Assembly: GCF_013122565.1 (NCBI RefSeq)
Contig: NZ_CP053258.1
Direction: 5' to 3' (one strand)
DNA: 64,000 nucleotides
DNA from: Escherichia coli
Lineage (GTDB): Bacteria > Pseudomonadota > Gammaproteobacteria > Enterobacterales > Enterobacteriaceae
Part shown: positions 38,489 to 41,816 of the stretch, piece after piece
Layout of the letters: each line of letters begins with the position of its first letter
Numbering within the stretch: the stretch's first letter is position 1
Made by a program: the position numbers and the translations under genes
Notes under the pieces: model-generated
Database searches by the model: none
Told to the model about the DNA's origin: nothing
Seen by the model: only the letters and a program-made list of their open reading frames with translations

Positions 38489-40842
<2,354 letters not shown>

Positions 40843-41130
40843 TTAATTTACTAAACACGGTTTGGTCAGCATAGCATCATGTTGTGCGAATAAACACCTG
40901 CTATTTTAATATTTGTTACAGTGGCTAAACACGCTGACGCAGGGCGGCGAGAAAAAGAGAAGTTACTGGCTGGTGGAGGATTAGGTGGTGAAATAAAAAG
41001 GCCGTTGGGTTACTCTTCAGGCAGTTAAATGGGCATTTCTACACAGATAATGCGATGTTCAGATTCTGTAGACTTATAATGATAGATAATGATCCGTCTA
41101 CAGCATGACAAACAAAAACAGATGCGTTAC

Positions 41131-41158
41131 GGAACTTTACAAAAACGAGACACTCTAA
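41131..41158 (+). promoter_or_regulatory. sigmaE-dependent rpoE promoter (-35 GGAACTT, -10 TCTAA)
   Basis: GGAACTT at 41131-41137, 16-nt spacer, TCTAA at 41154-41158, about 85 bp upstream of rpoE ATG. Confidence 0.55.
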
Positions 41159-41240
41159 CCCTTTGCTTGCTCAAATTGCAGCTAATGGAGTGGCGTTTCG
41201 ATAGCGCGTGGAAATTTGGTTTGGGGAGACTTTACCTCGG

Positions 41241-41816
41241 ATGAGCGAGCAGTTAACGGACCAGGTCCTGGTTGAACGGGTCCAGAAGGGAGATCAGAAA
41301 GCCTTTAACTTACTGGTAGTGCGCTATCAGCATAAAGTGGCGAGTCTGGTTTCCCGCTATGTGCCGTCGGGTGATGTTCCCGATGTGGTACAAGAAGCTT
41401 TTATTAAAGCCTATCGTGCGCTGGATTCGTTCCGGGGAGATAGCGCTTTTTATACATGGCTGTATCGGATTGCTGTAAATACAGCGAAAAATTACCTGGT
41501 TGCTCAGGGGCGTCGTCCACCTTCCAGTGATGTGGATGCCATTGAAGCTGAAAACTTCGAAAGTGGCGGCGCGTTGAAAGAAATTTCGAACCCTGAGAAC
41601 TTAATGTTGTCAGAAGAACTGAGACAGATAGTTTTCCGAACTATTGAGTCCCTCCCGGAAGATTTACGCATGGCAATAACCTTGCGGGAGCTGGATGGCC
41701 TGAGCTATGAAGAGATAGCCGCTATCATGGATTGTCCGGTAGGTACGGTGCGTTCACGTATCTTCCGAGCGAGGGAAGCTATTGATAACAAAGTTCAACC
41801 GCTTATCAGGCGTTGA
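41241..41816 (+). CDS. rpoE: RNA polymerase sigma factor sigma-E (sigma24)
   Basis: ORF track 41208..41816; ATG at 41241 gives MSEQLTDQVLVERVQKGDQKAFNLLVVRYQHK..., 191 aa. Confidence 0.96.
   Translation: MSEQLTDQVLVERVQKGDQKAFNLLVVRYQHKVASLVSRYVPSGDVPDVVQEAFIKAYRALDSFRGDSAFYTWLYRIAVNTAKNYLVAQGRRPPSSDVDAIEAENFESGGALKEISNPENLMLSEELRQIVFRTIESLPEDLRMAITLRELDGLSYEEIAAIMDCPVGTVRSRIFRAREAIDNKVQPLIRR

What the first reader, a model, noticed from the sequence alone, without database searches (positions are those of the whole stretch)
41066..41103. Inverted repeat with AT-rich 22-bp core in the nadB-rpoE regulatory region
CTGTAGAC (41066-41073) and GTCTACAG (41096-41103) flank TTATAATGATAGATAATGATCC, which contains a TATAAT hexamer, about 30 bp upstream of the sigmaE-type promoter at 41131-41158. 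The 407-bp nadB-rpoE gap is known to hold several rpoE promoters; this palindrome could be a regulator binding site or part of one of those promoters. I looked for a sigma54 -24/-12 element in this gap and found no convincing match.
Basis: seen in the sequence. Interest (0 to 1): 0.3.

Follow-up and report, generated by a model that had tools for sequence, protein, structure and literature searches.

The report
Hairpin around an rpoE upstream promoter
The inverted repeat is real; its AT-rich centre holds the -10 box and start site of a known upstream promoter of the stress sigma factor gene rpoE and the start codon of the leader peptide gene rseD. Its arms look like a conserved stem-loop in the longer rpoE leader RNAs, so it is mostly known biology with one modest new detail.

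Summary
In detail: CTGTAGAC (41066-41073) and GTCTACAG (41096-41103) flank a 22-nt AT-rich spacer. On its own this is weak evidence, since a shuffled 407-bp gap gives such a repeat 16.5% of the time.

- **A working promoter.** TATAAT (41075-41080) is the -10 box of a real promoter. Published SMRT-Cappable-seq data place primary 5' ends at window 41088 and 41099. They also show 41023/24 (an upstream promoter) and 41165 (the sigmaE promoter).
- **The rseD start codon.** The ATG of the annotated rpoE leader peptide gene rseD lies at 41089, one base after the 41088 start site. The right arm encodes rseD codons 3-5.

Across 25 Enterobacteriaceae the core ACTTATAATGA is almost invariant. The arms change sequence but stay complementary:
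- A helix of at least 6 bp occurs in 80% of species, against 27% at control positions.
- G·U pairs outnumber A·C pairs (10 species against 2).

This argues against a fixed dimeric-regulator site. It favours a plus-strand RNA stem-loop in leaders that start at the upstream promoters. What that stem-loop does is unknown.

The promoter and rseD are already known. The covarying hairpin is a modest new detail.

The parts
41066..41073 (+). Left arm of the inverted repeat (CTGTAGAC). It lies at -22 to -15 relative to the 41088 start site, so it is transcribed only from upstream promoters.
   Evidence: Pairing with the right arm has probability 0.98-1.0 in leaders folded from 40914 or 41023.
41096..41103 (+). 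Right arm (GTCTACAG). It lies at +9 to +16 of the 41088 transcript and covers codons 3-5 (R L Q) of rseD.
41074..41095 (+). The 22-nt AT-rich spacer, which forms the hairpin loop. It is part of the conserved core ACTTATAATGA.(G)A.AA.GA.
   Evidence: Alignments A1, A2 and A3: the TATAAT columns are invariant or nearly so.
41075..41080 (+). TATAAT, the -10 hexamer of an upstream rpoE promoter. No matching -35 hexamer is present.
   Evidence: A primary 5' end lies 8 nt downstream. No canonical -35/-10 pair was found. The hexamer is conserved across genera.
41088..41088 (+). Transcription start site (MG1655 2710165, reverse strand), one base before the rseD AUG.
   Evidence: SMRT-Cappable-seq Supplementary Data 2 of PMC6131387.
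41085..41090 (+). GATAAT, a second -10-like hexamer 10 bp downstream. It is a candidate -10 for the 41099 start site but is not conserved as a -10 in other genera.
   Evidence: Direct repeat D9. Start site 2710154 maps to 41099. Variants GATAAG and GATAAC appear.
41099..41099 (+). Second mapped primary 5' end, inside the right arm.
41089..41244 (+). rseD, the 51-aa rpoE leader peptide gene. Its stop codon overlaps the rpoE start codon (ATGA).
   Evidence: RefSeq annotation. NCBIfam NF033697 matches at E = 3e-30. Its translation is reported in PMC12350097.
41023..41024 (+). Upstream start site (MG1655 2710230/29). Its transcripts contain both arms. It is preceded by GTGAAA (40988-93), a 17-nt spacer and TACTCT (41011-16).
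   Evidence: The upstream block is conserved in alignment A1.
41131..41165 (+). SigmaE-dependent promoter (GGAACTT, 16 nt, TCTAA) with its start site at 41165. It lies inside rseD.
   Evidence: Start site 2710088 is.
41241..41816 (+). rpoE coding sequence.

Best explanation
The element has two layers.

(1) DNA level (shown). The AT-rich spacer is the core of a sigma70-family promoter of the rseD-rpoE-rseABC operon that lacks a -35 box. TATAAT (41075-80) is its -10 and transcription starts at A41088. This is probably the promoter called rpoE P5 (-153) by Klein et al. 2016, but that identification rests on my memory because the paper is not held in the library. In E. coli this transcript begins one base before the rseD AUG, so rseD is nearly leaderless on this isoform.

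(2) RNA level (inferred). Only transcripts that start further upstream carry both arms; mapped starts include 41023/24 and, by report, others further up. In those transcripts the arms pair into an 8-bp stem with a 22-nt loop that displays the AU-rich core and the upstream-ORF start codons. Selection has kept this stem while its sequence drifted.

What the stem does is not established. My best guess is that it organises the long leader by keeping the AU-rich start region as a defined loop, which could affect rseD/uORF initiation or leader stability. It does not act on the rpoE Shine-Dalgarno sequence directly: the predicted accessibility of that sequence is the same in all isoforms (about 0.5).
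For: - **Start sites.** Primary 5' ends of rpoE operon transcripts lie at MG1655 2710229/30, 2710165, 2710154 and 2710088 (PMC6131387 Supplementary Data 2). These map to window 41024/23, 41088, 41099 and 41165. The window has no indels against MG1655 and only 3 SNPs in the gap, none of them in the repeat.
- **Conserved core.** ACTTATAATGA is invariant or nearly so in 15 of 17, then 21, then 25 Enterobacteriaceae. Within E. coli the 91-bp segment is at least 99% identical in 5370 of 5425 genomes.
- **Arms differ but stay complementary.** Examples are TGTAGAC/GTCTACA, CAGAC/GTCTG, AGCGGA/TCCGCT, GCGGAA/TTCCGC, GTGAAC/GTTCGC, CCATGAA/TTCGTGG and CGCGAAA/TTTCGCG.
- **Pair counts on unfitted MAFFT alignments.**
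  - Paired cells are 67.7% and 63.1%, against 28-47% when the partner is slid.
  - 7 of 8 pairs show changes on both sides.
  - The covariation score is 0.265 and 0.264, against 0.06-0.17 for slid partners, except the -1 slide of A3 (0.229), which is the register used by a second group of genera.
  - Only 4/500 and 17/500 shuffles reach the observed score.
- **Helix length.** A contiguous helix of at least 6 bp at the homologous anchor occurs in 80% of 25 species, against 27% at control anchors in the same intergenic regions.
- **Strand.** Allowing G·U lengthens the helix more than allowing A·C in 10 species against 2, which points to plus-strand RNA.
- **Consensus folding.** RNAalifold recovers the hairpin in each of the two register groups.
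- **Single-sequence folding.** Pair probabilities are 0.98-1.0 in leaders folded from 40914 or 41023.
- **Literature.** Reviews state that rpoE has six promoters, five of them distal to the sigmaE promoter. All lie upstream of or within rseD.
Against: - RNAalifold on all 21 sequences together predicts no structure, because two groups of genera use registers one base apart.
- The shuffle tests are only moderately extreme. The tool's own documentation says related sequences can reach such values without any structure.
- Folding energies show no preference for the plus strand over the minus strand.
- With a lenient duplex-energy measure the true site is only modestly better than control sites (mean percentile 0.27 over all positions, 0.16 over intergenic positions).
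- The innermost pairs (AGAC/GTCT) are conserved in sequence in most genera. A protein site or a promoter-spacer constraint could also explain that.
- K. pneumoniae, Superficieibacter, Pluralibacter and Enterobacter sp. R1 have only interrupted helices.
- No experiment in the papers I could read addresses the stem.
- No function can be derived from sequence: the stem does not occlude the rpoE ribosome binding site.
Confidence: 0.5

Rival explanations
1. The palindrome is the operator of a dimeric or tetrameric regulator that sits over the -10 and start site of this promoter (half-sites at -22/-15 and +9/+16, centres 30 bp apart) and represses or activates it.
For: The symmetry centre (41084.5) lies about 4 bp upstream of the mapped start site 41088, a typical repressor position. 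The promoter lacks a -35 box, so it may depend on a factor. The inner AGAC...GTCT is conserved in sequence in about 15 of 25 genera.
Against: The arms are replaced by unrelated complementary sequences in other genera (GCGGAA/TTCCGC, CGCGAAA/TTTCGCG, CCATGAA/TTCGTGG, GGCA/TGCC), while the core and the rest of the promoter region stay conserved. G·U-type half-changes are tolerated on one strand. No Fur-box match within 3 mismatches exists anywhere in the window. By eye, LexA, IHF, CpxR and RcsB consensus sequences do not fit. None of the reviews read mentions a site here.
Confidence: 0.15
2. Only the TATAAT promoter core and the rseD start codon matter. The flanking 8-bp repeat is a neutral by-product (chance, or quasi-palindrome correction) with no function of its own.
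For: Such a repeat arises in 16.5% of shuffled gaps. The single-sequence z-score is -1.85. RNAalifold on the full alignment gives nothing. Several genera have only 4-5 bp or interrupted helices. The duplex-energy percentile is modest.
Against: A helix at the same homologous position occurs in 80% of 25 species against 27% at control anchors. Pairing peaks sharply at registers 0 and -1 compared with the other slid registers. There are repeated double-sided changes and a G·U over A·C asymmetry.
Confidence: 0.2
3. The symmetry acts at the DNA level. One version is a bidirectional promoter, with the minus strand reading TAGACG-16-TATAAG towards nadB. The other is a supercoiling-sensitive cruciform whose loop pre-melts the -10 and start region.
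For: Shimada et al. 2014 (PMC3946193) found an RpoD-holoenzyme SELEX peak in the rpoE-nadB spacer. They predicted a nadB-direction promoter TAGACT-16-TATAAG, which matches the minus strand of this palindrome apart from one letter. The spacer is AT-rich and the plus-strand promoter has no -35 box.
Against: The only nadB start site in the Cappable-seq operon table is 2710391 (window 40862), 200 bp away. The hexamers in that paper are pattern predictions, not mapped starts. The arms that would supply the minus-strand -35 are not conserved. A cruciform would not tolerate strand-specific G·T pairs. A 22-nt spacer disfavours extrusion (general knowledge).
Confidence: 0.08

Closest known systems
rpoE distal promoters P1-P5 (Klein et al. 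2016, J Biol Chem 291:22999); specifically P5, which I recall at -153
   Same: There is a start site at 41088, which is -153 from the rpoE ATG, with another at 41023 (-218). Both lie distal to the sigmaE promoter. Reviews by the same authors confirm six promoters, with P6 being the sigmaE one.
   Different: The primary paper is not held in the library, so the numbering, the sigma-factor assignment and any regulator of P5 could not be checked. The positions -153 and -218 are from my memory. Only the independent Cappable-seq data support them here.
rseD (ORF51), the rpoE leader peptide translationally coupled to rpoE (Yakhnin et al. 2017, J Bacteriol 199:e00484-17)
   Same: The ORF at 41089-41244 is annotated as rseD in RefSeq, matches NCBIfam NF033697, and has an ATGA overlap with rpoE.
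   Different: That work, as summarised and as I remember its abstract, concerns CsrA sites near the rpoE ribosome binding site and translational coupling. It does not concern the repeat around the rseD start. The full-length ORF is limited to Escherichia, Shigella, Citrobacter and Salmonella, whereas the core and hairpin are family-wide.
Leaderless mRNAs (for example lambda cI from PRM, Tn1721 tetR)
   Same: The mapped 5' end (41088) is adjacent to an annotated AUG (41089), and no Shine-Dalgarno sequence precedes it.
   Different: There is a 1-nt leader, and start-site tables can be off by one base. Translation of rseD from this isoform is untested. The AUG at this position is present in only about half of the genera.
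rpoS leader stem-loop with an upstream (AAN)4 Hfq site
   Same: Both are sigma-factor genes with a long leader from upstream promoters. Here a local stem-loop is followed by an A-rich ARN-type tract (AACAAAAACAGA, 41108-41119).
   Different: Here the stem does not sequester the rpoE ribosome binding site and no small RNA partner is known. The A-rich tract is equally well explained as the UP element of the sigmaE promoter. This resemblance is a lead only.

Membership tests
sigma70-family promoter | A -10 hexamer close to TATAAT | tested here: met
   TATAAT at 41075-80 matches 6 of 6 and is conserved across genera.
sigma70-family promoter | A primary (5'-triphosphate) transcript end 6-9 nt downstream of the -10 | tested here: met
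   The SMRT-Cappable-seq start site 2710165 maps to window 41088, 8 nt after T41080.
sigma70-family promoter | A -35 hexamer 16-18 bp upstream, or an extended -10 TGn | tested here: not met
   No canonical pair was found. The -35 region is not conserved. No TG is present at -15/-14. The promoter may depend on an activator or on sigmaS.
Operator of a dimeric transcription factor | Half-site sequence conserved among species that keep the regulated promoter | tested here: not met
   The arms differ between genera while the core is invariant.
Operator of a dimeric transcription factor | Protein occupancy (footprint or ChIP) | not testable with these tools
   No binding data were accessible, and none of the reviews read mentions a site here.
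Conserved cis-acting RNA stem-loop | Both arms are transcribed on the same strand | tested here: met
   Start sites at 41023/24 lie upstream of the left arm.
Conserved cis-acting RNA stem-loop | Base pairs are maintained by compensatory changes | tested here: inconclusive
   Support: 7 of 8 pairs have double-sided changes, the covariation score exceeds most slid controls, and only 4/500 and 17/500 shuffles reach it. A helix of at least 6 bp occurs in 80% of species against 27% at controls. Against: RNAalifold finds nothing on the full alignment and finds the hairpin only within each register group.
Conserved cis-acting RNA stem-loop | Match to a curated RNA family | tested here: not met
   The best Rfam matches have E above 1 and lie far below the gathering scores.
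Intrinsic terminator or attenuator | A G+C-rich stem followed by a U run | tested here: not met
   No terminator-like site lies in 40800-41300 on either strand. The right arm is followed by an A-rich tract.
rseD leader peptide gene | An ORF matching the RseD model whose stop codon overlaps the rpoE start codon | tested here: met
   NF033697 matches at E = 3.2e-30, RefSeq annotates a CDS here, and the ATGA overlap is present.
Dispersed repeat (REP/BIME-like) | Multiple copies per genome | tested here: not met
   There is one place per genome in 5425 E. coli genomes.

The most novel reading that the evidence does not exclude
The arms form a previously undescribed, family-wide RNA stem-loop in the long rpoE leaders. 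The stem encloses an internal promoter and the start codons of rseD and other upstream ORFs. It would distinguish two classes of rpoE mRNA. The first class is long, stem-containing leaders from the sigma54, sigma70 and sigmaS promoters. The second is short isoforms, nearly leaderless for rseD, that start inside the loop. The two classes would differ in rseD translation, and therefore in translational coupling to rpoE, or in stability.
Probability: 0.3. Interest if true: 0.45.

Novelty: new member of a known kind. Interest (0 to 1): 0.3.

Why it matters
SigmaE is essential in E. coli and its level is tightly controlled. Six promoters and a coupled leader peptide are already known. If the stem-loop is functional, it adds a post-transcriptional difference between the mRNA isoforms made by different sigma factors. 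It would explain why an internal promoter core is bracketed by a covarying helix across the family. It would also give a simple handle (arm and compensatory mutants) for asking how rseD translation is started. If the stem is not functional, the finding reduces to features already described: a known promoter -10 box and the rseD start codon.

Tried and rejected
**Regulator and terminator motifs**
- Fur box: the GATAAT-type repeats in the core suggested it, but there is no match within 3 mismatches and the repeats are not contiguous hexamers.
- Sigma54 -24/-12 element: no match within 3 mismatches in the upstream part of the gap on the rpoE strand.
- Intrinsic terminator on either strand: none.
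- LexA (CTGT-N8-ACAG), IHF, CpxR and RcsB boxes: checked by eye against consensus sequences recalled from memory; the spacing or sequence does not fit.

**RNA structure**
- Known RNA family: none in Rfam.
- RNase III-type long stem: the 21-nt imperfect arms add only two weak pairs in the fold.
- Anti-Shine-Dalgarno role: the right arm shares only GUCU/AGAC with the rpoE Shine-Dalgarno region, and the predicted accessibility of that region does not change between isoforms.

**Searches that gave little**
Only 3 of the 80 stretches listed were rpoE loci.
- A hairpin search in more distant Enterobacterales was too noisy to interpret. The Pantoea Mb-10, Acerihabitans and Rahnella/Serratia cases are suggestive only.
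- The primary papers could not be read. The start-site supplements tried from four other papers were cut, empty or not held.

**Strand**
- Comparing folding energies of the two strands gave no signal.

Full report
**Observation**

The sequence is as described. CTGTAGAC lies at 41066-41073 and GTCTACAG at 41096-41103, around the 22-nt spacer TTATAATGATAGATAATGATCC. TATAAT is at 41075-41080. The repeat finder places the pair inside a longer imperfect repeat.

By itself the repeat is unremarkable. The window holds 51 perfect 8-bp inverted repeats with a 3-40 nt spacer, against 27.8 +/- 4.9 in shuffles. 16.5% of shuffled 407-bp gaps contain at least one. As RNA the hairpin folds at -11.7 kcal/mol, z = -1.85.

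**Context**

The window is E. coli. The 407-bp gap is 100% identical to an O157:H7 chromosome and is present once in 5425 of 5426 complete genomes. nadB runs leftwards from 40833 and rpoE starts at 41241.

This is rseD, the 51-aa rpoE leader peptide, at window 41089-41244, and it matches NCBIfam NF033697 at E = 3e-30. Three consequences follow:
- Its ATG lies inside the spacer.
- The right arm is rseD codons 3-5.
- The sigmaE promoter (GGAACTT at 41131, TCTAA at 41154) lies inside rseD.

rseD is reported to be translated (PMC12350097). Reviews state that rpoE has six promoters, with P6 the sigmaE one and P2/P3 sharing a start (PMC6358824 and PMC8745692). All lie upstream of or within rseD (PMC8595263).

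**Start sites**

The primary papers (Klein 2016, Yakhnin 2017) are not held in the library. Supplementary Data 2 of the SMRT-Cappable-seq paper (PMC6131387) lists primary 5' ends for the rpoE operon and for nadB. The window maps to MG1655 by w = 2751253 - coordinate. There are no indels and only three SNPs in the gap, none of them in the repeat.

| MG1655 coordinate | Window position | Interpretation |
|---|---|---|
| 2710229/30 (reverse) | 41024/23 | Upstream rpoE promoter |
| 2710165 (reverse) | 41088 | Start 8 nt after TATAAT |
| 2710154 (reverse) | 41099 | Start 9 nt after GATAAT (41085-90) |
| 2710088 (reverse) | 41165 | SigmaE promoter |
| 2710391 (forward) | 40862 (minus strand) | nadB promoter |

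The 41088 and 41023 sites are -153 and -218 from the rpoE ATG. Those are the positions I recall for Klein's P5 and P4, but this is memory and is not verified.

So the TATAAT in the spacer is the -10 of a genuine promoter. It has no usable -35. In E. coli its transcript begins one base before the rseD AUG. The start-site table may be off by one base.

**Comparison between species**

I collected rpoE loci in four ways:
- 80 species genomes.
- Salmonella, K. pneumoniae and further E. coli, by exact RpoE look-up.
- Nine more genera through their RseA proteins.
- Three metagenome hits.

In Enterobacteriaceae the core ACTTATAATGA.(G)A.AA.GA is almost invariant. The flanks differ in sequence but remain complementary:

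| Genus or group | Left arm / right arm |
|---|---|
| Escherichia, Salmonella, Citrobacter | TGTAGAC / GTCTACA |
| Intestinirhabdus | GTTGTAGAC / GTCTGCAGC (two U·G pairs) |
| Enterobacter | CAGAC / GTCTG, plus an outer ATCG / CGAT |
| Kosakonia | CGTTTGCAGA / TTTGCGAACG |
| Enterobacter sp. Ag1 | AGCGGA / TCCGCT |
| Franconibacter | GCGGAA / TTCCGC |
| Cronobacter | GTGAAC / GTTCGC |
| Buttiauxella | CCATGAA / TTCGTGG |
| Shimwellia | CGCGAAA / TTTCGCG |
| K. pneumoniae | GGCA / TGCC, plus GCAAC / GTTGC |

Intestinirhabdus keeps the core and helix although nadB is absent upstream. Mangrovibacter has lost the core.

**How strong is the covariation**

Pair counts were made on unfitted MAFFT alignments in the E. 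coli register:

| Measure | 21 sequences (A2) | 25 sequences (A3) |
|---|---|---|
| Cells paired | 67.7% | 63.1% |
| Cells paired when the partner is slid | 34-46% | 28-47% |
| Pairs with changes on both sides | 7 of 8 | 7 of 8 |
| Covariation score | 0.265 | 0.264 |
| Covariation score when slid | 0.06-0.17 | 0.08-0.13, and 0.229 at the -1 slide |
| Shuffles reaching the observed score | 4/500 | 17/500 |

The -1 slide in A3 is the register used by a second group of genera.

Further tests:
- A contiguous helix of at least 6 bp (Watson-Crick plus G·U) at the homologous anchor occurs in 80% of 25 species, against 27% of control anchors in the same intergenic regions. For at least 7 bp the figures are 52% against 14%.
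- Allowing G·U lengthens the helix more than allowing A·C in 10 species against 2, with 13 ties. A·C is the minus-strand equivalent of G·U, so this favours plus-strand RNA.
- Against the stem, RNAalifold predicts nothing on the full alignment. It recovers the hairpin only in each register group separately.
- A lenient duplex-energy measure is only modestly better than controls.
- Plus-strand and minus-strand folding energies do not differ.

I rate the evidence for a selected helix as moderate.

**Interpretation**

The arms lie at -22/-15 and +9/+16 of the 41088 start. The short transcript therefore cannot form the stem. Only leaders that start upstream can, such as those from 41023/24 and from the more distal promoters. 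In those leaders the stem is predicted with pair probability about 1.

The stem does not change the predicted accessibility of the rpoE Shine-Dalgarno sequence. It is not a terminator and matches no Rfam family.

The full-length rseD ORF is confined to Escherichia, Shigella, Citrobacter and Salmonella. Salmonella starts its version at the ATG of TATAATG, because a 1-nt indel in the spacer shifts the frame. Most other genera have short, non-homologous upstream ORFs that start at that same conserved AUG. The stem is therefore older than rseD. Its role, if any, is more likely general: leader organisation, stability, or presentation of the AU-rich start region.

**Rivals**

- **Dimeric-regulator operator.** It fits the position over the -10 and start site and the partly conserved AGAC/GTCT. 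It does not fit the replacement of the arms between genera.
- **Neutral palindrome.** This cannot be excluded.
- **DNA-level symmetry.** A bidirectional promoter is hinted at by Shimada et al. 2014. They predicted a nadB-direction promoter TAGACT-16-TATAAG inside an RpoD-holoenzyme SELEX peak. The minus strand of this palindrome reads TAGACG-16-TATAAG. No minus-strand start is listed there.

**Verdict**

The spacer is part of a known promoter and holds the known rseD start codon. The arms are probably a conserved leader stem-loop of unknown function. Interest is modest.

Noticed in passing
window 40888-40901 (SNP at 40889): The window has A at 40889 where K-12 MG1655 has G. In K-12 this gives GG (40888-89), 10 nt, then GC (40900-01), which is sigma54 -24/-12 core spacing ahead of 40914. 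That position is -327, where I recall the RpoN-dependent rpoE P2 start (from memory). The window allele breaks the GG. The exact 41-mer carrying A occurs in 2792 of 5426 E. coli genomes. Even the K-12 version is a poor match to the full consensus.
   Followed up: partly
window 40840-40862: A NadR-type palindrome, TGTTTAatttacTAAACA (40840-40857), lies just downstream of the mapped nadB start site (40862, minus strand). TAAACAC recurs three times, at 40852, 40891 and 40926.
   Followed up: no
window 41077-41091: All three stop codons (TAA TGA TAG, 41077-41085) lie in tandem in the rseD frame, one codon (ATA) before its ATG. A second AUG (41079, inside TATAATG) opens a 9-codon ORF that ends at 41108.
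   Followed up: partly
L204 1040-1204 (Salmonella) compared with window 41079-41244: Salmonella has a 54-aa RseD-like ORF that starts at the ATG overlapping TATAATG. A 1-nt indel in the spacer puts E. coli in another frame with a start 10 nt downstream. The protein search returned RseD entries only under Escherichia, Shigella and Citrobacter names, plus one partial entry labelled Pseudomonas aeruginosa.
   Followed up: partly
window 40988-41024: GTGAAA (40988-93), a 17-nt spacer and TACTCT (41011-16) precede the mapped start sites 41023/24. The block GTGATGAAATAAAA...GTTACTCT is conserved across Enterobacteriaceae. It is probably the promoter reported as the sigmaS-dependent P4 (position from memory).
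   Followed up: partly
window 41108-41119: An A-rich tract, AACAAAAACAGA (four ARN triplets), is conserved as AAAAACAAAGG directly after the right arm. It could be the UP element of the sigmaE promoter or an Hfq distal-face site.
   Followed up: no
L218 (Intestinirhabdus alba) 1-893: nadB is absent upstream of rpoE; a methyltransferase gene lies there instead. The conserved core and a 9-bp helix with two U·G pairs are retained.
   Followed up: partly
L084, L090 and L099: These three metagenome contigs share a nearly identical 64-nt match to my search pattern (ACTTATAATTAAGAGAAATGCC...GGAACTT). Nine other loci gave matches of the same length but were not inspected. The sequence is unrelated to rpoE and looks like a recurrent sequence from some abundant organism.
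   Followed up: no
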